From Bacillota bacterium (GTDB lineage Bacteria; Bacillota; Clostridia; Acetivibrionales; DTU013), in contig JAEXNT010000031.1 of assembly GCA_023439545.1 (NCBI GenBank), positions 25,994 to 89,993 of the forward strand: a stretch of 64,000 nt of DNA, read 5' to 3'. The notes under the pieces were generated by a model. That model ran no database searches and was not told the DNA's origin. It saw only the letters and a program-made list of their open reading frames with translations. Position numbers and translations under genes: made by a program. This document shows, piece by piece, positions 30,017-50,024 of the stretch. The stretch's first letter is position 1; each line of letters opens with the position of its first letter.

Positions 30017-30949
30017 CTACTTTAAGAAGTCCAACGCCGATTTTTCTATACCCTTCGCGTCGAGACCATAGTAGGCGAGCAGCTCGTCATACGGGCCCGA
30101 GCTTGCATAGGTCTTGGGTATCCCCAGACGCTTCACTCTTACCGGGCATTTTGAGCTGCATAACTCGGAAACCAGTGTTCCCAGGCCGCCGTCCGCGTAA
30201 TGCTCTTCCACGGTGATGATGCCTTTTGTTTTCAGCGCCGATTCTATGACCAGTTCCTCGTCGATCGGACATACTGTCGGCATGCCAATCAGCCGGATAG
30301 AAACGCCTTGCTTTGAAAGGTTTTCGGCGGCTTCCACCGCGGCTTTTGTCGTGGAACCCGTGGATATTATGGTTACGTCTGTGCCCTCTCTGATGATGCG
30401 GCCCTTTCCGATTACGAAGGGCTGCTCGTCGAACAGGACGGGGATCTTCGGATTTCCGATGCGCATGTAGACCGGCCCCTCATGCTCCATCATGGCTTTT
30501 ACCGCCGTCCTTATTTCTGTCGGATCCTGCGGCGCAAGGACCACAACGCCCGGGATCATCCTTATGATGGCGAAATCCTCGAGAGAGTGATGGGTCGCGC
30601 CCAGGTCGGAATAGGATATGCCGCAGTTACGGCCTACGACCTTGACATTCTGCTTCATATAGCCCAGATCATTCCTGAACATCTCGAACGGTCTTGATGT
30701 CACAAAAGGAGCGATAGCGCAGAATACCGGTATCCTGCCTGTCGTTGCAAGGCCTGAGGCAACGCCTATTACGCCCTGTTCCATGATTCCGCATTCAAAG
30801 TACCTGCCCGGATATTGTTTTACAAAATCTCCGAATCCGGAGCTTTTCCCGCTGTCTGCGGAAAGAACGACTATTTTTTCATTTTCTTTGGCCAGCTCTG
30901 TTACCGCTTTGCCGAATTCTTTCCTCGGATCAAGATATTCTCCGATCAT
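30017..30949 (-). CDS. Transketolase, C-terminal (pyrimidine-binding) subunit, copy 1
   Basis: 310 aa; ECGIMEQ, split-type transketolase; overlaps the N-terminal subunit gene by 4 nt. Confidence 0.9.
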   Translation of the reverse strand: MIGEYLDPRKEFGKAVTELAKENEKIVVLSADSGKSSGFGDFVKQYPGRYFECGIMEQGVIGVASGLATTGRIPVFCAIAPFVTSRPFEMFRNDLGYMKQNVKVVGRNCGISYSDLGATHHSLEDFAIIRMIPGVVVLAPQDPTEIRTAVKAMMEHEGPVYMRIGNPKIPVLFDEQPFVIGKGRIIREGTDVTIISTGSTTKAAVEAAENLSKQGVSIRLIGMPTVCPIDEELVIESALKTKGIITVEEHYADGGLGTLVSELCSSKCPVRVKRLGIPKTYASSGPYDELLAYYGLDAKGIEKSALDFLK

Positions 30950-31809
30950 CTATTTTCACCTGATTTCTGCTCCAGAGCCAGAGTTTTGTTTTTGATTTCC
31001 TTTTCAGCCTCTTCAGCCTCTTCCTTGGATGGACTCCAATAATGGAATGCAGCGTTGCCTTCTCCTTCGGACAACCCCTTGCATTTGACGGTGCGGGCGA
31101 TTATAGCCGTAGGCCTGCCCTTTTCCAGGGGTATCGAGTCGAGGGTTTCTACTATCTCCTGCATGCTGTTGCCGTCTATATTCCTTACTGCCCAGCCGAA
31201 TGCCCTGAAGCGCTCGTCTATGGGCGTCATGTTCATGACGTCCTCCACTTTTCCGCTGATCTGAAGACCATTGTAATCGACAAATAAAACAATATTGTCC
31301 AGATGATAATGGGATGCCACCGAGGCCGCCTCCCAGTTGGAGCCTTCCGGCAGTTCGCCGTCTCCCATCACGACATATATCCTTGCAGCCGGATGCTCAT
31401 CCCTCATGCCCAGCGCCATACCGCAGGCTATCGATAAACCGTGTCCCAGCGCGCCCGTATTTGCTTCCACTCCAGGCAGCTTGTGCATGTCCGGATGACC
31501 CGGGATCTTTGAATGCAGGCTACCGTAGGTATCCAGCACCTCCTTTGTGAAATACCCCTTTTCTGCAAGCACTGCGTATTGAGCCAGGCACTTATGGCCT
31601 GCCGACAAAATAAAACGGTCCCTGTCTTCTTTTTTGGGATTCCTGGGATCGATATTCATCGAGTGAAAGTAAACGGCTGTGACTATATCCAGGCAGGAGA
31701 ACGCCCCGCCTATGTGGCCGTGTTCGCTGGCCTTGATCATTCGTATCACATTTTCACGGCATTTTGATGCCGTCAGTTCCAAAGCGGCTATTTCATTCAA
31801 ATCTGCCAT
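30946..31809 (-). CDS. Transketolase, N-terminal (ThDP-binding) subunit, copy 1
   Basis: GHIGGAFS, SAGH, GDGELPEGSNWEA motifs. Confidence 0.9.
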   Translation of the reverse strand: MADLNEIAALELTASKCRENVIRMIKASEHGHIGGAFSCLDIVTAVYFHSMNIDPRNPKKEDRDRFILSAGHKCLAQYAVLAEKGYFTKEVLDTYGSLHSKIPGHPDMHKLPGVEANTGALGHGLSIACGMALGMRDEHPAARIYVVMGDGELPEGSNWEAASVASHYHLDNIVLFVDYNGLQISGKVEDVMNMTPIDERFRAFGWAVRNIDGNSMQEIVETLDSIPLEKGRPTAIIARTVKCKGLSEGEGNAAFHYWSPSKEEAEEAEKEIKNKTLALEQKSGENR

Positions 31810-32249
31810 CAGATCTCACCTTTTTCATAAGAGACTATTCTGTCGACTTTTGATTTAGACCTCGAATTCGGATCGTAGGCCAATCCTAGATATTCTTTTA
31901 CAAAGCATTTTGCCGATTCTATCCCGGTAACCTGCGCACCCATTGTAATAATGTTGGCGTTATTGCTGAGCTGCGCCCTCTGCGCCTGGTATATATCGGT
32001 GACCAAAGCCGCGTAGGCGCCTTTGACTTTGTTGGCTGCAATACTGACGCCGATGCCCGTCCCGCAGATCAGGACGCCCCTGTCGCATTTGCCTGCCGCA
32101 ACGTCGGTAGCTACTTTAATTGCAGTGTTTGCGTAAATTGGATCGTCGCTGCCGTAATCCACGCATTCGTGCCCCAATGATTCGATATACGGGATCAATG
32201 CCATTTTAAAATCTGTTGCGTTAGGATCGCACCCGATAGCTATTTTCAT
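31809..32249 (-). CDS. rpiB: RpiB/LacAB-family sugar-phosphate isomerase
   Basis: MKIAIGCD..., ICGTGIGVSIAANK; 146 aa; TGATG overlap with the tkt gene. Confidence 0.85.
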   Translation of the reverse strand: MKIAIGCDPNATDFKMALIPYIESLGHECVDYGSDDPIYANTAIKVATDVAAGKCDRGVLICGTGIGVSIAANKVKGAYAALVTDIYQAQRAQLSNNANIITMGAQVTGIESAKCFVKEYLGLAYDPNSRSKSKVDRIVSYEKGEI

Positions 32250-32290: not shown

Positions 32291-32335
32291 ACTTGTATAT
32301 ACCTGTATAATATAATAAGGTTTCTGATTTGTCAA
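32291..32335 (-). promoter_or_regulatory. Promoter plus GTATATAC-core operator (site A) for rpiB-tkt
   Basis: On the minus strand: TTGACA (32335-32330), 17-nt spacer, TATTAT (32312-32307), then ACAGGTATATACAAGT (32306-32291). Confidence 0.7.
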
Positions 32336-32413
32336 CTGCATGCTGATCGTTATTGAATGAATGCATCGCAAAAGTGAAACAAAAGAACCGCCCCTGCGTT
32401 TCAGTTAATAATC

Positions 32414-32460
32414 TTGACTGTAGGTAATGCCGATGCTAGAATAAAGCTGTATATACAGGT
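32414..32460 (+). promoter_or_regulatory. Promoter plus operator (site B) for the kinase-dhaKL operon
   Basis: TTGACT (32414-32419), 17-nt spacer, TAGAAT (32437-32442), then AGCTGTATATACAGGT (32445-32460, a 12-bp perfect palindrome). Confidence 0.7.
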
Positions 32461-32612
32461 AAGTACAGTGGTATATAGTTATAATTACTGTAATAATAAG
32501 TCATTATAAGCTTAATGGCTGAAAAAATATACAGTTTATTTGTTCCAAGCAGGATGTTCAGCGCCCTTGAGGCGCGAATTACAATTAAAACATCCGAAAA
32601 GGAGAAAAACGT

Positions 32613-33953
32613 ATGGAAAAGACTCTTCTTCAAAGACTTGACACCGATATGGACGCAGAGCTGGCCAGGCTCATCGGGCTATTCAGGGAGAATAAGGCGC
32701 CCGTTTTCAATTCCTACATGAAAGAACACTTCAGGATTGCCAAGAGCAAGCCCGACGAATTTTCAAACCACCCGCCCGTATTGGCAATCTCACTGGGCGG
32801 AACCAATCTCAAGCTTATGATCGCAGGGATGAAGAACGGCACGATGATGGTCGAGCATGTCAGGGCGATGCAGATCCCCGCACACCCGGTTGAATTCACC
32901 GAATTTTTTGACGAGATACTGATGTGTGACGAGTATATAAAAAATTACCTGAGCAAAAATGAAAATACTTACGTAGGCTTTTCCTTCCCGATGGCTATCT
33001 TTGACGGCGTACCCTTTCATCCCACAAAAGTTCCCAATTTAAAGGGAGTCATCATACGGGATATGGACGACCTGAGCCAGAAATTCAATTTTGGAAATAA
33101 TTTTAATACTTACCTGAAGAATCGTGGCTTCCATCCGGTCGAGCTGTTTTACCAGTCCGATGGCATCATTGCGCACCACGGCGCAGTAGCGCTATGCGAT
33201 ACGGAGCTCGAAGACAGCACCACGCTGATCATTTGCGGCACGGGCATGGCGACCGGCGACGAGGAAAATTACATCCAGCTGGGTATAGCTGAAATAATAG
33301 ATAATGATGAAGAAATATATCCCGCCTCTGAAACGGAGAATCACCAGTACCAATATGCATTGGCGGGCAAGGGACTGTTCGGGTTGATGAGAAGATGCAT
33401 CGGGATCGCATCGGAAGAACCGGGATCGCACGTTGCAGGGCATGATCTGAGCGAGTATTTTACGGACTCACAGGGCTCGAAGACGACTGTTCAGATATGG
33501 GAAAGCAGCCTTGAAGGGTGTATCCCGGAGGATGTGGCCGGAACGATATCGGACAGGGTCGGTCCCGAAGCTTACGCCGAGCTGCAGAAAATAGCGGGAA
33601 AAATCGTGGAAAGGGTCATTGGTTCGATCGCAAACAGCGTTGTTTCCACGATTGTAAAGATGGGTCCCGCCGCAAATAAAAAGGGCCATCTGGTATTTTT
33701 CGAGGGCAGCGTCGTAAACAACAGAAATATTTTGCCGAGGGTAAAGACCGAGATAGCCCGGAGGATCAATAATGCAGCGTTATACAGCCGCATTGGGGTA
33801 CCGCAGCCCTTGCTGCCTGATATGGAAAGATCGCTGAAGCCTTTGAAAGCCTGCGGGGGGCTTCCCGAAGCATTGCTTGCGGACGTCGACATCACGCTGA
33901 TAGGAGCGGCGTCATCTGTCATGGCGGAGACCTGTCTGAGAAAGCAGGGATAA
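32613..33953 (+). CDS. Hexokinase-family (ASKHA) sugar kinase, paralogue 1
   Basis: Collinear with eukaryote-type hexokinase motifs: LAISLGGTNLKL (phosphate-1), GFSFP, IICGTGMA (phosphate-2), AGKGLFGLMRR, FFEGSVV. 446 aa. Confidence 0.6.
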   Translation: MEKTLLQRLDTDMDAELARLIGLFRENKAPVFNSYMKEHFRIAKSKPDEFSNHPPVLAISLGGTNLKLMIAGMKNGTMMVEHVRAMQIPAHPVEFTEFFDEILMCDEYIKNYLSKNENTYVGFSFPMAIFDGVPFHPTKVPNLKGVIIRDMDDLSQKFNFGNNFNTYLKNRGFHPVELFYQSDGIIAHHGAVALCDTELEDSTTLIICGTGMATGDEENYIQLGIAEIIDNDEEIYPASETENHQYQYALAGKGLFGLMRRCIGIASEEPGSHVAGHDLSEYFTDSQGSKTTVQIWESSLEGCIPEDVAGTISDRVGPEAYAELQKIAGKIVERVIGSIANSVVSTIVKMGPAANKKGHLVFFEGSVVNNRNILPRVKTEIARRINNAALYSRIGVPQPLLPDMERSLKPLKACGGLPEALLADVDITLIGAASSVMAETCLRKQG

Positions 33954-34053
33954 ACGAATGAAGCGGCAAAACATACGAACTGGTATGACGCTGCCCAGGT
34001 TGGCGACAGCCGTAAGGGCGGCGGTATATTAAATATAATAGGCGGGTGACTAT

Positions 34054-35052
34054 ATGAAAAAAATTCTGAACAAGAACGAAAGTTTCGTGGATGAAAGCCT
34101 GGAAGGCATCCTGGCGGCACACGGCGATATGCTGAAGGCTTGCGGCAGCGATATAAGAGCCGTTTTCAGGGCGGACTGCCCCGTGAAAAACAAGGTTGCC
34201 ATAGTAACGGGAGGCGGCTACGGACACCTGCCCGTTTTCCTGGGATATGTGGGTAAAGGCCTTGCGGATGGCGTTGCGGTCGGAAATGTATTCACTTCTC
34301 CGAGCTGCGATACGATCATAAACGTCACCAGAGAGGTCGACGGCGGAAAAGGCGTGCTTTACCTGTTCGGGAACTATGTCGGAGACGGCATGAATTTCGA
34401 TATGGCCGGGGAGATCGTCGGGCTCGACGGCATAGAGACAAGGATCGTAAAGGTTTCGGACGATATAGCCTCTGCGCCGCGAGAAAGCTGGCAGCAAAGG
34501 CGTGGCGTGGCGGGGCTGTTTTTCGTTTATAAAACTGCAGGCGCAAAAGCCGAGCAGCTGGCTGACCTCGAAGAAGTGCAGAGAATTGCTGAAAAAACCG
34601 CAGAACGCACCGCGACGATGGGCATAGCCATGTCCTCCTGCTGGGTGCCGGGGGCGGGGAGGCCTATATTCGAGATCAGTGAGGAAGATATCGAGGTAGG
34701 CATGGGGATCCATGGAGAACCGGGGGTAGAGCGCATTAAACTGGAAACTTCCAAAGAGATCGCGCAAAGAATAGTACCGAGGCTGGTCGAAGACCTGGGA
34801 CTGAACGACAAGTCCAGGGTTTCGGTGCTTGTCAACGGTTTGGGCTCCACGACTCGTGAAGAGCTTTATATACTGTACAGGGATGTCGATCAGCTGCTTA
34901 AGAGTTTCGGGATTACTACAGTGAAGGTTTTCGTAGGCGAGTACGCCACATCGCTGGAGATGGCGGGAGCCTCGGTCTCCATACTGGAGCTTGACGATGA
35001 ATTGACCGGGCTTTTGGAAGCGTCGGCATGTTCGCCTTTTATCAAATTATAG
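34054..35052 (+). CDS. dhaK: Dihydroxyacetone-kinase family, DhaK (substrate-binding) subunit
   Basis: GGGYGHLPVFLGYVGKG, NVFTSPS, GMGIHGEPG (covalent His retained). Confidence 0.85.
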   Translation: MKKILNKNESFVDESLEGILAAHGDMLKACGSDIRAVFRADCPVKNKVAIVTGGGYGHLPVFLGYVGKGLADGVAVGNVFTSPSCDTIINVTREVDGGKGVLYLFGNYVGDGMNFDMAGEIVGLDGIETRIVKVSDDIASAPRESWQQRRGVAGLFFVYKTAGAKAEQLADLEEVQRIAEKTAERTATMGIAMSSCWVPGAGRPIFEISEEDIEVGMGIHGEPGVERIKLETSKEIAQRIVPRLVEDLGLNDKSRVSVLVNGLGSTTREELYILYRDVDQLLKSFGITTVKVFVGEYATSLEMAGASVSILELDDELTGLLEASACSPFIKL

Positions 35053-35064
35053 GGAGTGGGTAAA

Positions 35065-35691
35065 ATGGCAATAGGAATAAATCAAGTTATCGAGGTCTTG
35101 TTGAAATCGGCGGAAGTAATAACCGCGTCCAAGGATCAACTCGAACAGCTCGACAGTGCCTCAGGCGACGGGGACCTCGGGATATCCATGAAAAGAGGGG
35201 CAGACGCCATCAAAGCAGTTCTGTCCGCCATAGGCGCTGAAAACGATATAGGAAACCTGCTTATTAAGTGCGCGATGGCCTTCAACAAGGAGGCTCCCTC
35301 AACGCTCGGAACGCTGTTGTCCTCCGCGATGCTGGCGGCAGGGAAGGAAACAAAAGGCAGAAGTGAGCTATCGGAAGGCGATGTTGTCAAACTTGCGCAG
35401 ATAATGACAAAAAGTATAATGGATCGCGGCAAGGCGGCTCTTGGAGATAAAACCATACTTGACGCCATGATCCCGATGAGCGAAGCCATGAGCAACAGCT
35501 TCGAACAGGGCGGAAGCCTTGCCGAATCGGTCAATGCCGGCGCTGCTGCGGCTGCGGCAGGGGCGGAAGCTACGAAGGAGCTCGTTGCAAAGGCTGGTAG
35601 GGCCAAATGGATAGGGGAGCGTACGAACGGCTTTCTTGACGGCGGCGCGGTGCTGTGTTCGATAGTCATAAACCACCTGGCGAAGGTTTAG
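35065..35691 (+). CDS. dhaL: Dihydroxyacetone-kinase family, DhaL (nucleotide-binding) subunit
   Basis: ATG lies 8 nt after AGGGAG. DSASGDGDLG Mg/ADP site. About 208 aa. Confidence 0.85.
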   Translation: MAIGINQVIEVLLKSAEVITASKDQLEQLDSASGDGDLGISMKRGADAIKAVLSAIGAENDIGNLLIKCAMAFNKEAPSTLGTLLSSAMLAAGKETKGRSELSEGDVVKLAQIMTKSIMDRGKAALGDKTILDAMIPMSEAMSNSFEQGGSLAESVNAGAAAAAAGAEATKELVAKAGRAKWIGERTNGFLDGGAVLCSIVINHLAKV

Positions 35692-35815
35692 AACTTTTTA
35701 TCGGGTTGAAGTGAAAGAGCCCGGCGCACCTGGAGGTTTATGGAACATGGCAAAAATTTTTGCGCCGCCTAACAATACAGCTTATGTGCTAACGCAATAA
35801 GCTTGCTTGTTCAGA

Positions 35816-35847
35816 AATAGCAGGTGCTCGATGTGCCTGCTATTTTT
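35816..35847 (+). terminator. Intrinsic terminator after dhaL
   Basis: AATAGCAGG-tgctcgatgtg-CCTGCTATT followed by a T run. Confidence 0.8.
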
Positions 35848-35857
35848 ATATAGCCGA

Positions 35858-35902
35858 TTGACAGAGGTGAACATATAGAGTATTATACTTGTATATACAG
35901 CT
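35858..35902 (+). promoter_or_regulatory. Promoter plus operator (site C) ahead of a roughly 200-nt leader and gntR
   Basis: TTGACA (35858-35863), 17-nt spacer, TATTAT (35881-35886), then ACTTGTATATACAGCT (35887-35902). Confidence 0.7.
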
Positions 35903-36065
35903 TTAGTCAGGTTAATACGAAATCAGATTGAAGGCTGTCAGCCCGAAGCGACGGCAAAGGGCAAGCCTACGATCCCGGCGATTCTGTAACGCTCCTTGAT
36001 AATTCAATATTTACAGAGGTCCTGAAGTGCGGCGGCGTCATATTGGTATCGGCATTTTGTAAAAG

Positions 36066-36094
36066 TTGACAATGTCCGATAAATTAACTATAAT
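36066..36094 (+). promoter_or_regulatory. Second, operator-less promoter immediately upstream of gntR
   Basis: TTGACA (36066-36071), 17-nt spacer, TATAAT (36089-36094). Confidence 0.6.
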
Positions 36095-36120
36095 TTTCAT
36101 ATATTATGGAAGGTAAAATT

Positions 36121-36840
36121 ATGCTTGAACGTTCGAATCCGAAGCCCTTATATCTGCAATTGACAGAGATAATAAGGGAAAAAATCCATAACGGCGAATG
36201 GGAAGCCAATAATCCGATACCATCGGAGAATGAGCTCAGCAAGATTTACGGACTGAGCAGGATGACCGTCAGATCCGTTATCACTCAATTCGTTTCCGAG
36301 GGCTTGCTGTACCGTGTACCAGGCAAGGGTACCTTTGTAGCAGAGCCTAAGATCACTGCGAAGTCTTTGTCCTATGCCGGCATAAGGGAACAGCTCGAAC
36401 AAATGGGATATGCGATATCTACCCGGATACTGAGCACCGAGACAATCGGCGCCGCCGGTCAGGTCGCGGAAAACCTGGCTTTGGAAAGCGGCAGTCCCGT
36501 ATATATGATAAAAAGGCTGAGGTACATCGGTGAAAATCCTCTCAGCCTGCATGTGAGCTATGTGCCCGTGGAAATGTGCAAAGGCCTCGATTCTGAAAAA
36601 CTGGAGAAGGAGCAGCTTTGTGTCGTACTCAAAAATGAGTACGGCCTGTCGCGCGGCAAAGTAGTTGAAACTCTCGAATCCTGTATGGCAACGACAACCG
36701 AAGCGAAGCTTCTGGAAATAAAGGCGAACCATCCTCTGCTGCTGCTTGAAGATATCATATATTCCGGCGACGGGATACCTTTCGAATATTCAAAAGTCCT
36801 TTTCAGAGGCGACAAGATCAAGATCAAAATGGAATTCTGA
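36121..36840 (+). CDS. GntR-family regulator, HutC subfamily (UTRA effector domain)
   Basis: Winged HTH ...PSENELSKIYGLSRMTVRSVITQFVSEGLLYRVPGKGTFV. The ATG at 36121 has a GGAAGG RBS. The ORF-track start at 36106 is too close to the -10 box. Confidence 0.85.
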   Translation: MLERSNPKPLYLQLTEIIREKIHNGEWEANNPIPSENELSKIYGLSRMTVRSVITQFVSEGLLYRVPGKGTFVAEPKITAKSLSYAGIREQLEQMGYAISTRILSTETIGAAGQVAENLALESGSPVYMIKRLRYIGENPLSLHVSYVPVEMCKGLDSEKLEKEQLCVVLKNEYGLSRGKVVETLESCMATTTEAKLLEIKANHPLLLLEDIIYSGDGIPFEYSKVLFRGDKIKIKMEF

Positions 36841-36966
36841 CAGTGTTTTCTGAATATGCTCTGCCGACTGATTTTCGCAAATATGCGAAAGTCTTTTTGC
36901 GCATCTCTTTTTAGCCTTGATTATAGCTATGAAACCATTCTTTTATTTCACTAAGGGGGAAATAAT

Positions 36967-38313
36967 ATGAGCAACAACTTACCATTTTGCCGGTTGAATT
37001 GCAGCCTGGGCTCATTGCTGAGTCCGGCCAATGAAGAAGGAAATATCGCCATAATAAGTTCCGATGAAGATTATGTCAGGAGAGTCCAGGACAAACCCCT
37101 CGGACTTGACGAGTTTATAAAATTGAAGGATTTTGTGAAATACATCGGAGTAACCCAAAACTTCAGGGAGATCGTCGACTTCTTCAAATCTCCGAAGGGA
37201 GAAACGCCGGCTGGTTTCCGCGTGGAATACGTGCTGGAGGGTAGTGTTCTGAAAGCCGATCTGGCGAGGGACATCGCCTATGACCGGAACGGAATCAGGC
37301 GGCCGACGAATCTGCTGTTTTCAGCAGATTCCGCGAACCCGTACGAGGTGGCGCCTGTAAGTAACCTCCTTGCCAATCTGACCTGCAACCCCGGGATAAT
37401 ATACGATCTTTTCATAAACAACCCGAAAGCCAATATTGGCAATAAATATAAGACAAGAGACGAGGTCATGGAGGAGATCGGCAGAATACTGGGTCCCGGC
37501 GCCGATATAAGCGTCGAGCTGAACAATCCCTTCTCCGCTTCGGAACAGGAGATTCTCGAGGAAGCTGCGAAATTCAAGGAGATGCTCTCGAAATACAGGG
37601 TTGTTATAAAAGTGCCGCATACCGGTCCCGTCAACAAGGATAACGTCGGGGAGCTTCTGATCGGGGATAAGAAATTCCAGAGACGTTACAGCGACGGCTC
37701 CGTAGAGGACATGTTCAGGGGCCATAACCTGGCGCTCATGCTCCACGAACACGGATACAGGGTCAACTTCACGCTGATGTTCGAGCCGTACCAGACAGCG
37801 CTGGCGCTCCAGGCCAGGCCGTATTTCATCAACAGCTTCATCAGGCACAGGGGCGCCCACACACACATGATAAAAGGACTTCTTGAAGCATACAATACCA
37901 GCGGAGAGACGGCTTTCCTGAAACAGCTGCGCAGTTATATGATCGATACCGATTACTTCTCGGCAAAGGACACGGACATAGACTTTTTCAAGGTGAAGGA
38001 AACCGCAGAGCTTTTTGTTGAACAGAGAAATGCGGATACTGTTGAAGGATCAGACGGTCTCGACGGAGTGAGGCACAACCTCAGGTGGCTGAGGCAGGCC
38101 AACCTGCCCGATACCAGGCTTATAATCTGCAGCATGGAAGGTGAAAGGAACTACCCCGATATCGACAGGCTGTTGACAGAAGAGGAATTCAGAGATATGG
38201 TAGGTAAAGTGGTCATTACGGCAGAGCCCGGATACCTCGCTAGATTCACCTCGACTCCGCAGGTAGTGGCTTACCAGAGAAGATTCATGAATGCGGCAAA
38301 CGGACAAAAGTAA
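36967..38313 (+). CDS. Transaldolase/fructose-6-P-aldolase superfamily protein, long form with an N-terminal extension of about 110 aa
   Basis: Collinear with Fsa/Tal motifs: FSADSANP...NLTCNPGII, VVIKVPHT (Schiff-base Lys), NFTLMFEPYQTALALQARPYFINSFIRHRG. 448 aa, versus about 220 aa for Fsa-type enzymes. Confidence 0.6.
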   Translation: MSNNLPFCRLNCSLGSLLSPANEEGNIAIISSDEDYVRRVQDKPLGLDEFIKLKDFVKYIGVTQNFREIVDFFKSPKGETPAGFRVEYVLEGSVLKADLARDIAYDRNGIRRPTNLLFSADSANPYEVAPVSNLLANLTCNPGIIYDLFINNPKANIGNKYKTRDEVMEEIGRILGPGADISVELNNPFSASEQEILEEAAKFKEMLSKYRVVIKVPHTGPVNKDNVGELLIGDKKFQRRYSDGSVEDMFRGHNLALMLHEHGYRVNFTLMFEPYQTALALQARPYFINSFIRHRGAHTHMIKGLLEAYNTSGETAFLKQLRSYMIDTDYFSAKDTDIDFFKVKETAELFVEQRNADTVEGSDGLDGVRHNLRWLRQANLPDTRLIICSMEGERNYPDIDRLLTEEEFRDMVGKVVITAEPGYLARFTSTPQVVAYQRRFMNAANGQK

Positions 38314-38330
38314 AAGGAGAAATGTAATAG

Positions 38331-39899
38331 ATGTGGCAGGCGGCTATCCCGTTTTCTAATGTTTTTATTGCCGCCGTAATTGCGGCGGCGCCTATAATAT
38401 GGATATTGTTCGGCATGCTGAAGCTTCAGCTGCCATCGTACAAAACAGGGCTCATAGCGCTTGCGATGGTGGCGCTGTCTGCGCTCCTGATATGGAAGAT
38501 GCCTGCCGGGCTGCTGATCCAGTCCGTCGTGGAAGGTGTGATGCTCGGTCTTTTCCCCATAATATGGGTCATATTTGCAGCCATATTCACCTATAACCTT
38601 CTCGTAAAGAGCGGCGCAATGGAAAAGATAAAGCGGATGCTTTCGAGCATATCGACGGATCCCCGTGCGCAGGTGATCATAATAGCATTTGCCTTCGGTG
38701 GGTTCATGGAGGCCACGGCAGGCTTCGGGACCGCTGTTGCGATCCCTGTGACCATTCTTATTTCAATGGGTTTCGAAGCTGAGCTTGCAGCCGTACTGTG
38801 CCTCGTCGCGAACACTGTGCCTGTGGCTTTCGGAGTCGTGGGCATACCTGTCATAACGCTCGCACAGCTGACAGGTCTGCCGCTTGGAGAGGTTTCGTTC
38901 AACACCGCGCTTCAACTGCTGCCGTTATCCGTGGTATTGCCTTTGATACTTGTCATCATAACTACCGGAAGGATCAGGGACGTAAAGGGAATGATCCCTG
39001 CAGCAGTCGTCAGCGGCATCACCTTTGCGGCAGGCCAGACACTGGTCGCGTGGGCCGTGGGTCCGGAGCTTGCTGCGGTAGTCGGTTCGATACTTGCCCT
39101 GGCGGCTTCTGTAGTGTGCGTCAGACTGCAGGGAAACAAAAAAGTCTGGCAATTCCCGGGCCGGATACAAACCGGTGCGGAGAAGGGCCCGAAGGTCGGG
39201 TTGGTTGAAGGTCTCAAGGCCTGGAGCCCATATATTTTTATCCTGGTATTCGTACTTGCTACCAGGCTGCTGCCCGCGCTGAGTTTTCTGAACAAGGCGC
39301 CGTTCACGGTGAAGCGCCTGTTCTATACCGGCAAGGGCGGATCGCCTATGAGCTTCCAGCTCCTGTCCAACCCCGGTACGATCATACTGATTGCAGCCAT
39401 ACTCGGCGGACTGATCCAAAGGGTAAGCTTCAAGGATATCCTCTCAGTCGGTTGGATGACGCTGAAGCAGATTACGAAAACAACGGTTACCGTGTTGACG
39501 ATCATACCTCTTTCGAAGGTAATGGGCTACAGCGGTATGATCTCAGTGATTTCGACGGGACTTACCAACGTGACGGGATCGTTCTTCCCTCTCATTTCGC
39601 CCTTCATAGGCGCACTGGGAACGTTCATAACGGGCAGCGATACTTCCGCTAACGCTTTATTCGGCGAATTGCAGAGGCAGACGGCGCAGCAGATCGGGAG
39701 CAGCCCGGCCTGGCTGGCAGCCTCCAATGCTGCCGGTGCGACCATCGGGAAGATGATATCGCCGCAAAGTATTGCAATAGCGGTTTCAGCCATAGGCTTG
39801 CCGGAGCTTGAAGGAAAGATTATGAAAAGGACTCTGAAATATGCAGTTGTTTTCGTAGTAGTCCTTGGAATAATAGTATACGCGGGTAATATAGGTTGA
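38331..39899 (+). CDS. L-lactate/glycolate permease (LctP) family transporter
   Basis: 522 aa, polytopic. The conserved FAFGGFMEATAGFGTAVAIP segment is typical of the LctP family. Confidence 0.8.
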   Translation: MWQAAIPFSNVFIAAVIAAAPIIWILFGMLKLQLPSYKTGLIALAMVALSALLIWKMPAGLLIQSVVEGVMLGLFPIIWVIFAAIFTYNLLVKSGAMEKIKRMLSSISTDPRAQVIIIAFAFGGFMEATAGFGTAVAIPVTILISMGFEAELAAVLCLVANTVPVAFGVVGIPVITLAQLTGLPLGEVSFNTALQLLPLSVVLPLILVIITTGRIRDVKGMIPAAVVSGITFAAGQTLVAWAVGPELAAVVGSILALAASVVCVRLQGNKKVWQFPGRIQTGAEKGPKVGLVEGLKAWSPYIFILVFVLATRLLPALSFLNKAPFTVKRLFYTGKGGSPMSFQLLSNPGTIILIAAILGGLIQRVSFKDILSVGWMTLKQITKTTVTVLTIIPLSKVMGYSGMISVISTGLTNVTGSFFPLISPFIGALGTFITGSDTSANALFGELQRQTAQQIGSSPAWLAASNAAGATIGKMISPQSIAIAVSAIGLPELEGKIMKRTLKYAVVFVVVLGIIVYAGNIG

Positions 39900-39907
39900 C
39901 GGTCACC

Positions 39908-39933
39908 GGCCGGCGTATTGACATACGCCGGCC
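39908..39933 (+). terminator. GC-rich stem-loop after the permease gene (no T run)
   Basis: GGCCGGCGTAT-tgac-ATACGCCGGCC. Confidence 0.4.
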
Positions 39934-40015
39934 ATGAACGCATAATATTGATTACACCGCATAAATTGCATGCGAGCCTCGCAATTTCGTCCGGGTTAAG
40001 CATGGGGGATATTGA

Positions 40016-41515
40016 ATGATCAAAGTTATGATCGTGGAAGATGTGGATATCATAAGGGAGGATGTCATACGGCTGATCAACTGGCAGGAACACGGTTTTA
40101 TCGTGATAGCCGAAGCCAGGAACGGCGAGATGGGTCTCGAAATGTTCAGGAAGCACAAGCCTGAAATTGTCATTACCGATATCAGGATGCCTGTCATGAC
40201 CGGCCTCGATATGATACAGGAGATACAGAAGACCGACAAGGATACGCAGTTCATTCTCTTGACGGACTACGGCGAGTTCGAGTATGCAAAAAAGGCCATG
40301 TATCTGGACGTCCATTCTTATCTTCTGAAATATGAACTGGACGATGACATGTTGCTCCGCGAACTCGAAAAAGTGCGCGCAATCGTTGAAAAACAGCGGA
40401 ATATAAACAGGATGACGAAGTCGGAATATCTCAAGGATTGGCTCATCCATGGCAAACGGGAAGCGGACGATCCCCAAAGCTTTTTTGGCTGGTACGGCCA
40501 CTGCTCCCTGATCGTAATAGATGCAAAAGGCTTCGACCGTAAGTCGTCCGAGCTTTATAACGACCTGCGGGAACAGCTGAATTCCGAAGCTCAGACTTAT
40601 GAATTCGAATATATAGAAATGTCCCCGCAGGAGTATGTCATTTTTTTAAAGGTATCCGAAAGCTTCAGCGAGTTGAAAAGCATGAATTATATAAGGACGT
40701 TTATCAGCCGCCTGCAGACATTGTTCAGGGAGACTTGCGCATTGGAGACGGCCGCCGCCGTGGGCGCGTATATCTATGGCTCTGGTGATGTCGCCGACGC
40801 CTACAGAAAAACAAAAAAACTTTTGCAGCAGAAAGTTTTTTACCCGAAAAGCTGCATCATAGATTTCCCCCCGCCGGAGCCTCCGGCAGCCCGGAAAGAG
40901 GAGGTCGCGCAGCTCCTGAAGTCCATCAGGTCCAATATACAAAACCTTAATGCCGACGAACTGCACGATCAGATACCCAGGCTTTTTACAGGCCTTCTGC
41001 GCGCGATCAAAAGTACCGAGCTGCTTGAAAACAGCGTCAGAGAACTTACCTTTGCGATCGCGAGCCGCAGCGTTCAGGGAAAAACGGACAACATGGGCGA
41101 AGTGCTTGATGAGATCATGGACTCCGTTCGCAATTATAACGTATATGTGCTTGCCGAGCTCTTCGACAAGGCGATAGAAATGCTAGGCGCCGATTTCGGT
41201 ACACGGTATTCCAAGCGTGTGAATGCCATCATAAGATACATTTCCGAGCATTACGGCGATGATATCAGTCTCTATGACCTTTCAAAGGAACTGGACCTCA
41301 GCGTGATTTATATCAGCCAGTTATTCAAGAAGGAAGTGGGCATTACCTTCTCGGCGTATCTGACGAAGGTCAGGATCGATAAGGCGATCGAGCTGCTCAG
41401 GACAGGACGCTACAAGGTGTACGAAGTGAGTAAAATGGTCGGCTATCAGACGGTCCAGTATTTCAGCAATATATTCAAAAAGGAAACCGGCAAAAAACCG
41501 GGCGATTTCTGTTAA
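40016..41515 (+). CDS. Response regulator with AraC-type HTH output (YesN-like)
   Basis: REC domain (VITDIRMPVMTG) plus C-terminal AraC HTH pair. 499 aa. Confidence 0.85.
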   Translation: MIKVMIVEDVDIIREDVIRLINWQEHGFIVIAEARNGEMGLEMFRKHKPEIVITDIRMPVMTGLDMIQEIQKTDKDTQFILLTDYGEFEYAKKAMYLDVHSYLLKYELDDDMLLRELEKVRAIVEKQRNINRMTKSEYLKDWLIHGKREADDPQSFFGWYGHCSLIVIDAKGFDRKSSELYNDLREQLNSEAQTYEFEYIEMSPQEYVIFLKVSESFSELKSMNYIRTFISRLQTLFRETCALETAAAVGAYIYGSGDVADAYRKTKKLLQQKVFYPKSCIIDFPPPEPPAARKEEVAQLLKSIRSNIQNLNADELHDQIPRLFTGLLRAIKSTELLENSVRELTFAIASRSVQGKTDNMGEVLDEIMDSVRNYNVYVLAELFDKAIEMLGADFGTRYSKRVNAIIRYISEHYGDDISLYDLSKELDLSVIYISQLFKKEVGITFSAYLTKVRIDKAIELLRTGRYKVYEVSKMVGYQTVQYFSNIFKKETGKKPGDFC

Positions 41516-41585
41516 GGCTCGGCTAACGGAAGTCATATTTCAATGATCTCTGAAAGCGGCCGGCTTTGTACAAGGGTGCCTCGTA

Positions 41586-41631
41586 TTGACTGAGCCCGGC
41601 CATTGTGCTATATTTTACTGTATATACAAGT
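41586..41631 (+). promoter_or_regulatory. Promoter plus operator (site D) for the GH2-kinase operon
   Basis: TTGACT (41586-41591), 17-nt spacer, TATATT (41609-41614), then TACTGTATATACAAGT (41616-41631). Confidence 0.7.
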
Positions 41632-41742
41632 AAATACATATATAGAGCTTAATTTCTTCTATATGATGTCATAAAAATAGACGGCATGCCAAAAATAAGC
41701 CGGTAATGCATCGCTTCAGGAGTACAAATACGGAGGTATAAG

Positions 41743-44241
41743 ATGAAAAACACTGTAATACTCAAAGAAGGATGGTCGATCAGAAAAATAAATCCCGCTG
41801 ACAGTCTTGACGAAAAGCGGATAGCGGAGTACTCGGCGGGTAACAGCGGGGAACTGTCTGCCGGGATGCCCGCACAGGTCCATGAAATATTGCTGGGGTA
41901 CGGTAAGATAGAAGATCCGACAGTTCTGGGGAATACTGAAAAATGTCTCTGGGTGTCCGAATCCGACTGGATATACAAATGCGAATTCAATGCAACCAAA
42001 GCAGGCAAAAGGCAGTATCTGAACTTCAAAGGGCTCGACACACTGGCTGACATCTATCTGAACGGCAGTCATATCGCCAGCCATAACGATATGTACATTC
42101 CACTCAGGGTAGATGTGACAGAGACCTTGAGGGATACCAATACGCTTCTCGTCCATTTTCACTCGCCCCAGGAATATCTCAGGCATCACAGCTGCGCCGC
42201 GATCGACAGCGGCAAGGTGGCAAAGCATAAATTACTCAGAAAGCCCGTGCATGATTTTATAGATTTTCTTGGTACAAAGCCGTATTTTACAAATATAGGC
42301 ATATTCGCCGACGTCATACTCGAGACGGCGGAGGAATGTGAGCTCGTATACGCCGACATACAGGCGAAGCTCAGCGATGATTACAAGAACGGTATTTTGC
42401 AGATAACTGCGGACGGTCTGGGCCGGCTCGAGAACGGTTCACTGGAGATCACTGTCACTGCGCCCGACGGGAAGGTTTGCGGTAAGCTTTCGGTGAACCT
42501 CGGAAAAACCGGGGCGGACGAATGGGCTAAGAATGCCAGGCTTTCAATTGAGGAACCTGCCCTTTGGTGGCCGCGCACTCTCGGCGGACAGCCCCTCTAC
42601 AAGGTTGAGGTCGGTTTGACGGACAACGGTGTTCTGACGGATAAAGTTGTAAAGAACATAGGTTTCAGGAAGATAGAAATGGCCGAGCCGTTTGACTTTA
42701 CCATAAACGGGAGGCCTTTGAAGCTCTGGGGGGCGTGTTTCGCGCCTACGCAGAGGTTAACCAACGTATGGAGCAGCAGGATTGCCAATACTCTTATGGA
42801 TATGGTCGAGAACGCCAACATGAATATCATGAGGATATGGGGCGAGGGAGTGCCGTACCCGGACGAATTGTACGATGAGGCGGACAAGAGGGGACTCCTG
42901 CTCTGGCAGGAATTCTACATGAGCTACGGAATGCATCCGGATGAAGAGTGGTACAAGGAACTCTGCAGAAAAGAAGCCGAATATGTTGTAAAGAGATTGA
43001 AGAACCGCGCTTCGGTTTTGATGTGGTGCGGCGGCAACGAGACCTCGATGAGTGTGCAATACGACCACCCGGGCGAGAAATGCTACGGTGACGAGATCTA
43101 TCTCGAAGATTACAAGAAAATATGCGAAAGCTTGGATCCGGACCGGTATTATCATCCGACTTCACCCTACGGAGGCGCTTTTGCGAACAGTCCGCGCGAG
43201 GGCGATACCCATGGGTATACTCATATCTGGTACGTACCGGGAGCCGATTACCCCGTATTCCTTTCCGAGAATACAAGGGTTTCGACGCCTGCCCTGAAAA
43301 GCATGAAAAAATACATGGGGGATAAGCTGTGGCCCGATGGCTATACGCCAATGGTGAGAAACCATCAGGAGCCTCCGATGCCGGAAACATGGATTGAGCG
43401 TGCTCCCGGCGGCGTATGGGAACGAACCAAAAATTTTGAGAAGTTCTATGACGCCGATAATCCGGAAGACCTTATCTACAGGCTGAGCTCGGCGCACACA
43501 CAGCATATAAGGGAAACGGCGGAAAGATCGAGAAGGGGCAGGCCTGCATACGATACTTCCGGTAAAAGGATCTGCAAGGGGCATACCGTATGGAAGCTGA
43601 ATGAACCGTATCCGGCCTTCTATTCAAGCATGATAGACTATTACCTCGAGCCGAATATGCCGTATTATGCTTTAAGGCGGGCCAACGAACCCGTACTGCT
43701 TTCGTTCGACGTAGGTAACGACATATACCTGTGGATCGTTAATGACAGCGCCGTTGCGGCAGGAGGGACTGTAGTCTGCGACCTGTTCAACCCGAGGACA
43801 AACTCTGTGATAAAGGAAATGAGGAAGGAAGTAACCGTATCGCCCGATGAATCCAAGGTCATTTTCAGGCTAGACGAATTCGGTCAGTTCAGGCGTGAGA
43901 ATTTCCTCTACGCACGGCTTGAGGACAAAAACGGGAACGTCATTGCCAGAACCAACGATTACGTCGACAGCGAGCGTTATTTGTACTTCCCCGACGCAGC
44001 TCTCAAATTGCGGCAGGAGGGAGAAGAGCTTGTAATAAAGGCGGATAAATTCGCAAGGTGCATAGAGCTGTCGGGCAACGATAACGGAGATGAATTCGGC
44101 TGGTTCTTCCAGGACAATTATTTTGATCTGATGCCCTGGGAAACGAAGAGGGTCAGGGTCCTCGGGAAACACAGCAAGGGGCTGGTCACGGCCAAAGCCC
44201 GGTTTTCTTCGCACAGGGCGGAAATACAATACAAAAAGTAA
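41743..44241 (+). CDS. Glycoside hydrolase family 2, beta-mannosidase-like, paralogue 1 (intracellular)
   Basis: 832 aa. RIWGEGVPY...LLLWQEF, acid/base WCGGNE, nucleophile region FLSEN. No signal peptide. Confidence 0.8.
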   Translation: MKNTVILKEGWSIRKINPADSLDEKRIAEYSAGNSGELSAGMPAQVHEILLGYGKIEDPTVLGNTEKCLWVSESDWIYKCEFNATKAGKRQYLNFKGLDTLADIYLNGSHIASHNDMYIPLRVDVTETLRDTNTLLVHFHSPQEYLRHHSCAAIDSGKVAKHKLLRKPVHDFIDFLGTKPYFTNIGIFADVILETAEECELVYADIQAKLSDDYKNGILQITADGLGRLENGSLEITVTAPDGKVCGKLSVNLGKTGADEWAKNARLSIEEPALWWPRTLGGQPLYKVEVGLTDNGVLTDKVVKNIGFRKIEMAEPFDFTINGRPLKLWGACFAPTQRLTNVWSSRIANTLMDMVENANMNIMRIWGEGVPYPDELYDEADKRGLLLWQEFYMSYGMHPDEEWYKELCRKEAEYVVKRLKNRASVLMWCGGNETSMSVQYDHPGEKCYGDEIYLEDYKKICESLDPDRYYHPTSPYGGAFANSPREGDTHGYTHIWYVPGADYPVFLSENTRVSTPALKSMKKYMGDKLWPDGYTPMVRNHQEPPMPETWIERAPGGVWERTKNFEKFYDADNPEDLIYRLSSAHTQHIRETAERSRRGRPAYDTSGKRICKGHTVWKLNEPYPAFYSSMIDYYLEPNMPYYALRRANEPVLLSFDVGNDIYLWIVNDSAVAAGGTVVCDLFNPRTNSVIKEMRKEVTVSPDESKVIFRLDEFGQFRRENFLYARLEDKNGNVIARTNDYVDSERYLYFPDAALKLRQEGEELVIKADKFARCIELSGNDNGDEFGWFFQDNYFDLMPWETKRVRVLGKHSKGLVTAKARFSSHRAEIQYKK

Positions 44242-44284
44242 GCTGCAGTAAAAAAGCTGTTAACGGTAAAAGGAGGTAGCCGGT

Positions 44285-47539: not shown

Positions 47540-47620
47540 ATAATAATAGTTTTGTTATGTATAACCCTTAAAATAAAAGTTCTATACTTGCAATATAAAA
47601 TTCAAGGAGGAGGCAGTAAA

Positions 47621-50011: not shown

Positions 50012-50024
50012 GGAGGTGGGACAA

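What the first reader, a model, noticed from the sequence alone, without database searches (positions are those of the whole stretch)
32291..41631. Four promoters with identical architecture and a GTATATAC-core palindrome define a putative GntR/HutC regulon
Each of four promoters has -35 TTGAC(A/T), a spacer of exactly 17 nt and a -10 box. Within 0-2 nt of the -10 box sits a 16-nt window holding a palindrome with an invariant GTATATAC core:
- ACAGGTATATACAAGT (minus strand, 32306-32291, rpiB-tkt)
- AGCTGTATATACAGGT (32445-32460, kinase-dhaKL)
- ACTTGTATATACAGCT (35887-35902, leader of gntR-transaldolase-like-permease)
- TACTGTATATACAAGT (41616-41631, GH2 plus second kinase)

The GT...AC palindrome fits the general GntR-family operator pattern, and a HutC-type GntR regulator is encoded within the set. 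An 8-mer is expected about once by chance in a window of this size. Finding it four times at the same promoter-relative position is hard to explain by chance. It also links loci 9 kb apart into one unit.
Basis: seen in the sequence. Interest (0 to 1): 0.8.

Follow-up and report, generated by a model that had tools for sequence, protein, structure and literature searches.

The report
Sugar-operon repressor sites at four promoters
Four promoters in a sugar-breakdown gene cluster of an uncultured gut or bioreactor-type bacterium carry the same DNA palindrome, which is almost certainly the docking site of the repressor encoded in the cluster; this is an ordinary kind of switch, but it ties together several enzymes of unknown function.

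Summary
GTATATAC occurs exactly four times in the 64-kb window, against 0.43 expected. Each copy starts 4-6 nt after the -10 box of a TTGAC(A/T)-17 nt-TAnnnT promoter, so it covers the likely transcription start.

- The local regulator (36121-36840) has a GntR wHTH plus a UTRA domain, so it belongs to the HutC subfamily. The motif fits the published HutC consensus NyGT(A/C)TA(T/G)ACNy.
- Of 23 non-redundant homologues with at least 50% identity from unrelated metagenomes, 12 have an exact TGTATATACA within 600 bp of the gene and 16 have it with at most one mismatch. None of 17 more distant homologues do.
- An unbiased ranking of 8-mers near these genes puts TATATACA and GTATATAC first.
- The same targets recur beside the sites in different gene orders: rpiB-split transketolase, a long transaldolase-like gene and dhaKL.
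- Loci with the same kinase and GH2 genes but no regulator lack the site.

Corrections: gntR also has its own operator-free consensus promoter. The hxk1 and GH2 operators carry a conserved weaker box 10 bp downstream. The two "kinases" belong to a rare, unannotated hexokinase-fold family.

Verdict: a new member of a known kind, of modest interest.

The parts
36121..36840 (+). gntR: HutC-subfamily GntR regulator (239 aa), the proposed repressor
   Evidence: Pfam GntR E 4.8e-18 and UTRA E 5.5e-34. Closest solved relative is NagR/YvoA, E 1.4e-37. All NCBIfam equivalog scores are below cut-off. The gene caller uses the same start.
32291..32306 (-). Operator O1 (ACAGGTATATACAAGT), directly after the -10 box of the rpiB-tktN-tktC promoter
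   Evidence: PWM score 20.7. Identical in L003.
32307..32335 (-). Promoter of rpiB-tktN-tktC: TTGACA-17-TATTAT
   Evidence: 11/12 matches.
30017..32249 (-). Target operon 1: rpiB (31809-32249), transketolase N-terminal subunit (30946-31809), transketolase C-terminal subunit (30017-30949)
   Evidence: Pfam and NCBIfam. The same three genes sit next to sites in L041, L063, L057, L067, L049 and L068.
32414..32442 (+). Promoter of hxk1-dhaK-dhaL: TTGACT-17-TAGAAT with TG
32445..32460 (+). Operator O2 (AGCTGTATATACAGGT)
   Evidence: PWM score 25.1. Conserved in L003 and L005 while the flanks diverge.
32459..32478 (+). Auxiliary boxes downstream of O2: GTAAGTAC (32459-32466) and GTATATAG (32471-32478)
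   Evidence: Read from the sequence. GTAAGTACA is conserved in L005. Weaker boxes 7-12 nt from GntR sites are described in PMC4494728.
32613..35691 (+). Target operon 2: hexokinase-fold kinase hxk1 (32613-33953), dhaK (34054-35052), dhaL (35056-35691)
   Evidence: hxk1 has no Pfam or NCBIfam hit. Its AF2 model (pLDDT 93.5) matches hexokinases and glucokinases. dhaKL lies next to sites in L018, L020 and L077.
35858..35886 (+). Promoter P3: TTGACA-17-TATTAT, 230 nt upstream of gntR
   Evidence: 11/12.
35887..35902 (+). Operator O3 (ACTTGTATATACAGCT)
   Evidence: PWM score 26.5. It lies in a 43-nt block fully conserved with L003 while the flanks vary.
36066..36094 (+). Second gntR promoter, TTGACA-17-TATAAT (12/12), with no operator
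   Evidence: Conserved in L003 and L005. L048 has a similar two-promoter layout.
36870..36893 (+). Terminator-like hairpin between gntR and the TAL-like gene
   Evidence: By eye the hairpin is kept in L003 through G-T-compatible changes.
36967..39899 (+). Probable targets read through from P3: long transaldolase-like gene (36967-38313) and LctP-family permease (38331-39899)
   Evidence: Pfam TAL_FSA and Lactate_perm. Fold matches short transaldolases and FSA. Lys215 is invariant. The TAL-like gene has its own site in L041 and L063. L005 lacks both the TAL-like gene and P3.
41586..41614 (+). Promoter P4: TTGACT-17-TATATT with TG
41616..41631 (+). Operator O4 (TACTGTATATACAAGT)
   Evidence: PWM score 22.5. 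Conserved in L003 and L005.
41630..41647 (+). Auxiliary boxes downstream of O4: GTAAATAC (41630-41637) and ATATATAG (41640-41647)
   Evidence: The 20-mer 41624-41643 is the fifth-best PWM hit in the window (12.8). GTAAATACATAT is conserved in L005.
41743..45622 (+). Target operon 4: GH2 beta-mannosidase-like glycosidase (41743-44241) and hexokinase-fold paralogue hxk2 (44285-45622). The operon may continue downstream.
   Evidence: hxk2 is 38% identical to hxk1. No strong promoter or terminator was found up to 56847.

Best explanation
The four palindromes are operators of the HutC-type GntR repressor encoded at 36121-36840. Their consensus is ATACTTGTATATACAAGTAT with core GT-ATAT-AC.

Proposed mechanism. 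A repressor dimer binds each operator. Each operator covers the transcription start just downstream of the -10 box of a strong sigma-A-type promoter, so binding blocks RNA polymerase. Four units are shut off in this way:
- rpiB-tktN-tktC
- hxk1-dhaK-dhaL
- the P3 transcript that reads into gntR and probably on into the TAL-like and LctP-family genes
- GH2-hxk2, and possibly further genes downstream

At the hxk1 and GH2 promoters a weaker box centred 10 bp downstream probably recruits extra subunits and tightens repression. gntR also has a constitutive consensus promoter, so repressor is always made. P3 adds negative autoregulation and inducible expression of the downstream genes.

The inducer is most likely a phosphorylated sugar intermediate of the pathway that binds the UTRA domain and releases the protein from DNA, as in NagR.

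Shown here: the motif, its register at the promoters, the family of the regulator, and co-occurrence of the motif with the regulator clade and with the same target genes across lineages.

Inferred: binding itself, the direction of control (repression), cooperativity at the extra boxes, operon extents, and the nature of the inducer.
For: - Motif and register: four exact copies against 0.43 expected. All start 4-6 nt after the -10 box of TTGAC(A/T)-17-nt promoters.
- Regulator family: GntR plus UTRA domains; NagR/YvoA is the closest solved relative.
- Published fit: the motif is an exact case of the HutC consensus NyGTMTAKACNy. CelR of C. difficile uses AAATGTATATACATTT.
- Co-occurrence, counted without redundancy: 12 of 23 regulator clusters with at least 50% identity have an exact TGTATATACA within 600 bp, and 16 of 23 have it with at most one mismatch. 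Background per 1200 bp is 0.011 and 0.026. None of 17 clusters below 50% identity has it.
- Unbiased 8-mer ranking near these regulators puts TATATACA (16/23) and GTATATAC (15/23) first.
- Same targets elsewhere: sites lie in front of rpiB-tkt, the TAL-like gene and dhaKL in L041, L063, L057, L067, L049, L068, L018, L020 and L077, in different gene orders.
- Negative control: kinase/GH2 loci without the regulator have no site at those operons.
- Footprints: against L005 (regulator 85% identical), only the -35 box, the -10 box and TGTATATACARGTAARTACA stay conserved.
- Same register after the -10 box in L005, L048, L057, L060 and L067.
- Residue mapping onto the NagR-DNA and NagR-effector structures (PMC4333415). 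The G-4 contact Arg48 corresponds to R47 and the wing Gly69 to G68; both are invariant. Arg38, which reads G-5 in NagR, is Asn here, and the motif has T at that position. The phosphate-binding Arg133 and Arg135 correspond to R132 and R134, also invariant.
Against: - No experiment: binding, repression and induction are all inferred.
- The whole genome could not be scanned, so the size of the regulon and the genome-wide specificity of the motif are unknown.
- Seven of the 23 related regulator clusters show no site within 600 bp. Their motif may have drifted, or their targets may lie elsewhere.
- The loci used for co-occurrence were selected through the regulator gene. The internal control (distant homologues) and the k-mer ranking lessen this bias but do not remove it.
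- The link between O3/P3 and the TAL-like and permease genes depends on read-through of a terminator-like hairpin.
- The operator-free consensus promoter of gntR could also drive those genes.
Confidence: 0.85

Rival explanations
1. The palindromes are real operators but are bound by a different transcription factor. Candidates are another HutC paralogue encoded elsewhere in the genome, or the AraC-type or LuxR-type response regulators encoded nearby.
For: GTATATAC-type cores are shared by several HutC regulators, for example CelR. Bacillota genomes usually hold several HutC paralogues. Two response regulators lie in the cluster. The rest of the genome was not available.
Against: The motif follows this regulator clade across independent lineages that lack those response regulators, and it stops at about 50% identity. 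AraC- and LuxR-type regulators do not usually bind GT-N4-AC palindromes (general knowledge). Kinase/GH2 loci that have AraC-type genes but no GntR lack the site.
Confidence: 0.06
2. The local GntR binds the sites but acts as an activator or a dual regulator rather than a simple repressor.
For: Some HutC regulators are reported as dual; the title of PMC6141813 calls NagR of B. thuringiensis pleiotropic and dual. Direction of control was not tested here.
Against: The sites overlap the start point of promoters that already match the consensus in 10-11 of 12 positions and need no activator. In L049 a site lies inside a promoter spacer. Both positions are typical of steric repression.
Confidence: 0.05
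3. The repeats have no regulatory role. They are chance matches or remnants of a duplicated promoter cassette.
For: The motif is AT-rich and resembles -10-like sequence. Promoters are AT-rich, and the four promoters share hexamers.
Against: No shuffle out of 100 reaches 4 copies. The spacers between the -35 and -10 boxes are unrelated, so this is not a duplicated cassette. The operator block is conserved in L005 while the flanks diverge. The motif is enriched beside homologous regulators in unrelated metagenomes.
Confidence: 0.02

Closest known systems
NagR (YvoA) of Bacillus subtilis, a GntR/HutC repressor of GlcNAc genes that binds dre sites (PDB 2wv0, 4u0v, 4wwc)
   Same: Same two-domain build (wHTH plus UTRA), and the closest solved relative (E 1.4e-37). 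It recognises a palindrome with GT-N4-AC geometry. The contacts Arg48 (to G-4) and wing Gly69 are conserved, as is the phosphate-binding Arg133/Arg135 pair. Operators overlapping promoters give steric repression that is relieved by a sugar phosphate.
   Different: NagR reads GG at positions -5 and -4 (TGGT...ACCA) through Arg38 and Arg48. Here Arg38 is Asn and position -5 is T. There are no nag genes in the regulon. NagR Thr90 is replaced by a clade-specific Arg (R89). The effector is unknown.
CelR of Clostridioides difficile, a HutC-type repressor of a cellobiose PTS operon (bioRxiv 10.1101/2021.06.26.450058)
   Same: Same operator core. Two AAATGTATATACATTT repeats span the predicted promoter, and mutating them abolished pull-down of CelR.
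   Different: The target genes differ (a PTS cellobiose operon, against PPP-like enzymes, kinases and a GH2 here). No orthology was shown. The flanks of the core differ (AAAT...ATTT against ACTT...AAGT).
Comparative-genomics regulons of HutC-subfamily factors (Suvorova, Korostelev and Gelfand 2015, PMC4494728)
   Same: Same consensus NyGTMTAKACNy with 4 nt between GT and AC. In divergent gene pairs with two separate sites, each site lies near its own operon. Weaker additional boxes lie 7-12 nt from the site centre. All three features are seen here.
   Different: I found no evidence that this regulator clade or its target set (rpiB, split transketolase, long TAL-like gene, dhaKL, hexokinase-fold kinases, GH2) has been described. 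That paper's regulon tables were not searched.

Membership tests
GntR family, HutC subfamily (regulator) | N-terminal GntR-type winged helix-turn-helix domain | tested here: met
   PF00392, E 4.8e-18, residues 15-78 of the 244-aa ORF.
GntR family, HutC subfamily (regulator) | C-terminal UTRA (chorismate-lyase-fold) effector domain | tested here: met
   PF07702, E 5.5e-34. Aligns over its full length to NagR/YvoA 2wv0.
GntR family, HutC subfamily (operator) | Palindromic operator NyGT(A/C)TA(T/G)ACNy with 4 nt between GT and AC | tested here: met
   All four sites are GTATATAC within ACTTGTATATACAAGT-like palindromes. The consensus is quoted.
GntR family, HutC subfamily (operator-regulator pair) | The motif co-occurs with the regulator's relatives and with the same targets in other genomes | tested here: met
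   12 exact and 16 near-exact of 23 clusters at 50% identity or more, against 0 of 17 below 50%. Top-ranked 8-mers. Shared targets. Negative loci.
GntR family, HutC subfamily (function) | Sequence-specific DNA binding that is released by a small-molecule effector | not testable with these tools
   Needs EMSA or footprinting and ligand screening.
NagR/DasR orthologous group (GlcNAc regulators) | dre-type site with GG at -5/-4 read by Arg38 and Arg48, and control of nag genes | tested here: not met
   The Arg38 equivalent is Asn37 and position -5 is T. No nag genes in the cluster. No NCBIfam model, including the HutC, PhnF and TreR equivalogs, reaches its cut-off.
Sigma-70/sigma-A-type promoters | -35 TTGACA-like and -10 TATAAT-like hexamers 16-18 nt apart | tested here: met
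   10-11 of 12 matches with 17-nt spacers at all four. Transcription start sites were not determined.
Hexokinase family (the two 'kinases') | Hexokinase/ASKHA fold with a glycine-rich phosphate-1 motif | tested here: met
   AF2 model with pLDDT 93.5. Foldseek gives probability 1.0 to yeast and human hexokinases, TM about 0.6-0.65, 13-15% identity. LGGTN motif is aligned to hexokinase-2. No Pfam or NCBIfam hit. Activity and substrate were not tested.
Transaldolase/FSA class I aldolases (448-aa gene) | TIM-barrel transaldolase fold with a Schiff-base lysine | tested here: inconclusive
   Pfam TAL_FSA, 40.5 bits against a cut-off of 27. Foldseek matches short transaldolases and FSA, TM (target-normalised) 0.7-0.78. 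K215 in VIKVPHTG is invariant, but its equivalence to the catalytic Lys was judged by eye only. The protein is twice the usual length.

The most novel reading that the evidence does not exclude
The operator links genes that together make an undescribed catabolic route.
- A beta-linked glycoside is cleaved by GH2 enzymes.
- Its sugar is phosphorylated by a rare bacterial hexokinase-fold family. That family has about 57 relatives among 5.8 billion proteins and no Pfam or NCBIfam model.
- The product is broken down by a dedicated module: an RpiB-like isomerase, a split transketolase, a widespread but uncharacterised transaldolase-like enzyme of about 440 aa, and DhaKL.
- The HutC clade senses a phosphorylated intermediate of the route.

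On this reading the conserved regulon would serve as a guide for assigning functions to both enzyme families.
Probability: 0.3. Interest if true: 0.6.

Novelty: new member of a known kind. Interest (0 to 1): 0.35.

Why it matters
The switch itself is a textbook HutC repressor-operator arrangement. Its value is practical.

- It joins four transcription units, about 12 genes across 16 kb, into one co-regulated set in an uncultured Bacillota lineage.
- The same regulator-motif pair marks related gene sets in human-gut and bioreactor metagenomes.
- The set contains two enzyme families with no assigned function: a hexokinase-fold kinase family and a long transaldolase-like family. It also contains a dedicated RpiB, transketolase and DhaKL module.
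- The regulon therefore gives a concrete starting point for finding the substrate and the inducer.
- It also supplies a compact, strongly repressible promoter-operator pair that could be tested as a genetic part.

Tried and rejected
- Riboswitch or small RNA in the 160-nt stretch between P3 and the gntR promoter. Rfam gave no match at gathering or E<=1 thresholds. The fold is no more stable than shuffles (z = -0.41). No convincing small ORF. Rejected for lack of evidence.
- Further operators in the window. A PWM scan found none beyond the four sites and the tandem box. The next hits are low-scoring: the one at 14963 lies in a leuA-like ORF, and the one at 26917 falls within an ABC-permease ORF by its coordinates. 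No site lies before the TAL-like gene, the permease, or the AraC-type regulator, which has its own promoter at 39918-39946.
- Naming the pathway. I considered erythrulose or erythritol catabolism (DhaK-type kinase plus RpiB-type isomerase), sulfoquinovose transaldolase or transketolase routes, apiose, and heptose or sedoheptulose. Literature searches gave no matching gene set. The RpiB scores below the D-erythrulose-4-phosphate isomerase cut-off (133 against 240 bits). No GH31 sulfoquinovosidase is present. None could be confirmed.
- Context of the TAL-like family elsewhere. It appears with rpiB-tkt, DHDPS-type aldolase, PfkB kinase, Dak1, aldo-keto reductases and enolase-superfamily genes. 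This is suggestive of sugar or sugar-acid catabolism but not decisive.
- Genome-wide scan for the motif.
- Sequence search of the TAL-like protein against PDB found nothing. Only the fold search did.


Full report
**1. The observation**

GTATATAC occurs four times in the 64-kb window, at 32295, 32449, 35891 and 41620. Dinucleotide-preserving shuffles give 0.43 on average and never four.

The sequence and an independent consensus scan show that each copy lies just downstream of a strong sigma-70-type promoter with a 17-nt spacer:
- Minus strand 32335-32307: TTGACA/TATTAT.
- 32414-32442: TTGACT/TAGAAT.
- 35858-35886: TTGACA/TATTAT.
- 41586-41614: TTGACT/TATATT.

The 8-nt core begins 4, 6, 4 and 5 nt after the -10 hexamer, so it covers the expected start point. 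Only 1.7% of random positions in the fetched loci have any promoter-like match in a 0-12 nt window upstream. The spacers between the hexamers are unrelated, so the four promoters are not copies of one cassette.

**2. The genes**

- Unit 1, minus strand: rpiB (31809-32249), transketolase N-terminal subunit (30946-31809), transketolase C-terminal subunit (30017-30949).
- Unit 2: a 446-aa protein with no Pfam or NCBIfam hit (32613-33953), then dhaK and dhaL.
- Unit 3: gntR (36121-36840; GntR wHTH plus UTRA, so HutC subfamily), a 448-aa transaldolase-like gene (36967-38313) and an LctP-family permease (38331-39899).
- An AraC-type response regulator (40016-41515) follows. It has its own promoter (39918-39946) and no site.
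- Unit 4: a GH2 beta-mannosidase-like enzyme (41743-44241) and a 445-aa paralogue of the unannotated protein (44285-45622; 38% identical).
- Downstream on the same strand, with small gaps: histidine kinase, solute-binding protein, two ABC permeases, a second GH2, an aldo-keto reductase and a third GH2. No strong promoter or terminator was found there, so unit 4 may extend further.

The window matches a metagenome contig (ENA ERZ24911385). Its nearest genome relative is a Bacillota MAG.

**3. Is the palindrome the operator of the local GntR?**

No single test is decisive. Six independent lines agree.

(a) Fit to the family. The published HutC consensus is NyGT(A/C)TA(T/G)ACNy with 4 nt between GT and AC. 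GTATATAC is an exact case. The HutC regulator CelR of C. difficile was reported to depend on AAATGTATATACATTT.

(b) Close relatives.
- In L003, where proteins are about 93% identical, all four sites are kept. Site 3 sits in a 43-nt invariant block while the flanks vary.
- In L005 the regulator is 85% identical and the gene order is hxk1-dhaKL-gntR-lctP-AraC-GH2-hxk2. There the non-coding DNA has diverged except for the -35 box, the -10 box and TGTATATACARGTAARTACA at the hxk1 and GH2 promoters.

(c) Distant relatives. A metagenome scan with the regulator returned 80 loci.
- The regulators were clustered at 90% identity. Of 23 clusters with at least 50% identity to the window protein, 12 have an exact TGTATATACA within 600 bp of the gene and 16 have it with at most one mismatch.
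- The background rate is 0.011 and 0.026 per 1200 bp. None of 17 clusters below 50% identity has it.
- No motif was assumed in a separate test that ranked all 8-mers by the number of clusters in which they occur near the regulator. TATATACA (16/23) and GTATATAC (15/23) came first, against an expectation of about 1.3.

(d) Same targets. In these unrelated loci the sites stand in front of rpiB-tktN-tktC (L041, L063, L057, L067, L049, L068), the TAL-like gene (L041, L063) and dhaKL (L018, L020, L077), in several different gene orders. In L049 another site lies in the spacer of an ABC-transporter promoter.

(e) Negative control. Loci found through the unannotated kinase that carry the kinase, GH2 and sometimes tkt-rpiB, but no GntR, have no site at those operons.

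(f) Structure-based mapping onto NagR (PMC4333415).
- The residue that reads the invariant G of GT (NagR Arg48) corresponds to R47. The wing glycine (Gly69) corresponds to G68. Both are invariant.
- NagR Arg38 reads the extra G of TGGT. It is Asn in this clade, whose motif has T at that position.

**4.

- The 29 independent sites give a longer palindrome, ATACTTGTATATACAAGTAT.
- The hxk1 and GH2 promoters carry a second GT-N4-AC box, GTAAGTAC at 32459 and GTAAATAC at 41630. It is centred 10 bp downstream and conserved in L005. A third degenerate box follows. Such weaker boxes 7-12 nt from GntR-family sites are described. I infer that they add subunits and tighten repression of these two units.
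- Site 3 lies 230 nt upstream of gntR. gntR has its own perfect TTGACA-17-TATAAT promoter (36066-36094) with no operator, and this promoter is conserved in L003 and L005. L048 shows a similar two-promoter layout.
- A terminator-like hairpin (36870-36893) follows gntR.
- L005 lacks both the TAL-like gene and P3. In L041 and L063 the TAL-like gene has its own site just after gntR. My reading is that the operator-free promoter keeps repressor present. P3 then gives autoregulated, inducible transcription that reads through into the TAL-like and permease genes. This step is inferred.
- The stretch between P3 and the gntR promoter has no Rfam match and no unusual stability.

**5. Mechanism and inducer**

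Operators that cover the start point of near-consensus promoters point to steric repression. Where the position differs, as in L049, the site lies within the promoter spacer, which points the same way. The two arginines that hold the phosphate of GlcNAc-6-P in NagR (Arg133, Arg135) correspond to R132 and R134 and are invariant in all homologues examined. A phosphorylated sugar is therefore the likely inducer. An arginine specific to this clade (R89) replaces NagR Thr90 at the same pocket, so the ligand probably differs from an amino-sugar phosphate. None of this was tested.

**6. What the regulon does**

- The two unannotated proteins have a confident hexokinase fold: pLDDT 93.5, and Foldseek probability 1.0 to yeast and human hexokinases at 13-15% identity. 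They belong to a very small family of 57 hits among 5.8 billion proteins, all unnamed or labelled hypothetical. In other MAGs they usually sit beside GH2 genes, and sometimes beside tkt-rpiB or the TAL-like gene.
- The TAL-like protein has a transaldolase/FSA fold at twice the usual size, with an invariant lysine in VIKVPHTG. Its family is large and strongly conserved, with more than 1,700 hits at 65-70% identity across phyla. It recurs with rpiB-tkt in a Bacteroidota-like locus and with Dak1 elsewhere.
- The most economical reading is as follows. A beta-linked glycoside is imported and cleaved by GH2 enzymes. The sugar is phosphorylated by the hexokinase-fold kinases and fed through an RpiB-type isomerase, a split transketolase and a TAL/FSA-type enzyme. 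DhaKL captures a triose or tetrose product, and the LctP-family permease moves an acid.
- The substrate is unknown. Erythrulose, heptose, sulfosugar and apiose routes were considered, and none could be confirmed.

**7. Comparison with known systems and novelty**

The system works like NagR, DasR or CelR: a HutC dimer, a GT-N4-AC palindrome at the promoter, and a sugar-phosphate inducer. It meets the HutC membership features that can be tested by computation. It is not NagR, TreR, HutC or PhnF: all NCBIfam equivalog scores fall below their cut-offs, and the Arg38 contact and the nag genes are missing. I found no description of this regulator clade or its target set, but RegPrecise-type tables were not searched. 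I rate it a new member of a known kind.

**8. Verdict**

Interest is modest at 0.35. A specialist would not be surprised by the switch. The regulon does, however, link two uncharacterised enzyme families and a dedicated pentose-phosphate-like module into one testable unit that recurs in gut and bioreactor metagenomes.

Noticed in passing
window 32613-33953 and 44285-45622: Two paralogous proteins of about 445 aa (38% identical) have no Pfam or NCBIfam hit. They have a confident eukaryote-type hexokinase/glucokinase fold. The family is tiny (57 relatives among 5.8 billion proteins, all unnamed or labelled hypothetical) and usually sits beside GH2 genes in Oscillospiraceae, Clostridiales and Treponema MAGs.
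   Followed up: partly
window 36967-38313; L098, L100: A 448-aa 'transaldolase family protein' is twice the length of the short transaldolases it resembles in fold. It has more than 1,700 homologues at 65-70% identity across Bacillota, Bacteroidota and Spirochaetes. It recurs next to rpiB and split transketolase, and elsewhere next to Dak1, aldo-keto reductases and enolase-superfamily genes. Its function is unknown.
   Followed up: partly
window 36066-36110: A perfect TTGACA-17-TATAAT promoter lies directly before gntR and has no GTATATAC operator. The sequence TTCATATATT just after its -10 box is conserved in L003 and L005. It resembles the degenerate CATATAT boxes near the GH2 operator and might be a weak autoregulatory site.
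   Followed up: partly
window 35996-36007: The inverted repeat TTGATAATTCAA lies in the stretch between P3 and the gntR promoter. It is identical in L003 and kept as TTGAAAACTCAA in L005, although the surrounding sequence has diverged. It may be a site for another factor. Unexplained.
   Followed up: no
window 36870-36893: A terminator-like hairpin followed by a T-run lies between gntR and the TAL-like gene. It is kept in L003 with wobble-compatible changes. It may set how much P3 and gntR-promoter transcription reaches the TAL-like and permease genes.
   Followed up: partly
window 40016-41515 and 45626-56847: An AraC-type response regulator, a HAMP/His_kinase sensor, a solute-binding protein and two ABC permeases are interleaved with three GH2 paralogues and an aldo-keto reductase. 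This points to a second, two-component layer of control over uptake of the same substrate. No GntR-type site was found there.
   Followed up: partly
L049 19120-19230 and 16470-16520: In a human-gut relative the rpiB promoter has the same layout: TTGACT, a 17-nt spacer, then a -10 box abutting GTATATAC, plus a downstream GGTATAGACC box. A second site lies in the spacer of the promoter of an Opp-type ABC transporter operon. The clade's regulon therefore includes different transporters in different lineages.
   Followed up: partly
L063 1350-6631 and 13065-16181; L041 4274-7181: In other lineages the regulator's neighbourhood holds Zn-dependent alcohol dehydrogenases, a xylose-isomerase-like TIM-barrel protein, TctABC and TAXI-TRAP transporters, and a class II aldolase. 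Some of these have sites in front of them. This hints that the shared rpiB-tkt-TAL module serves polyol or ketose catabolism there.
   Followed up: no
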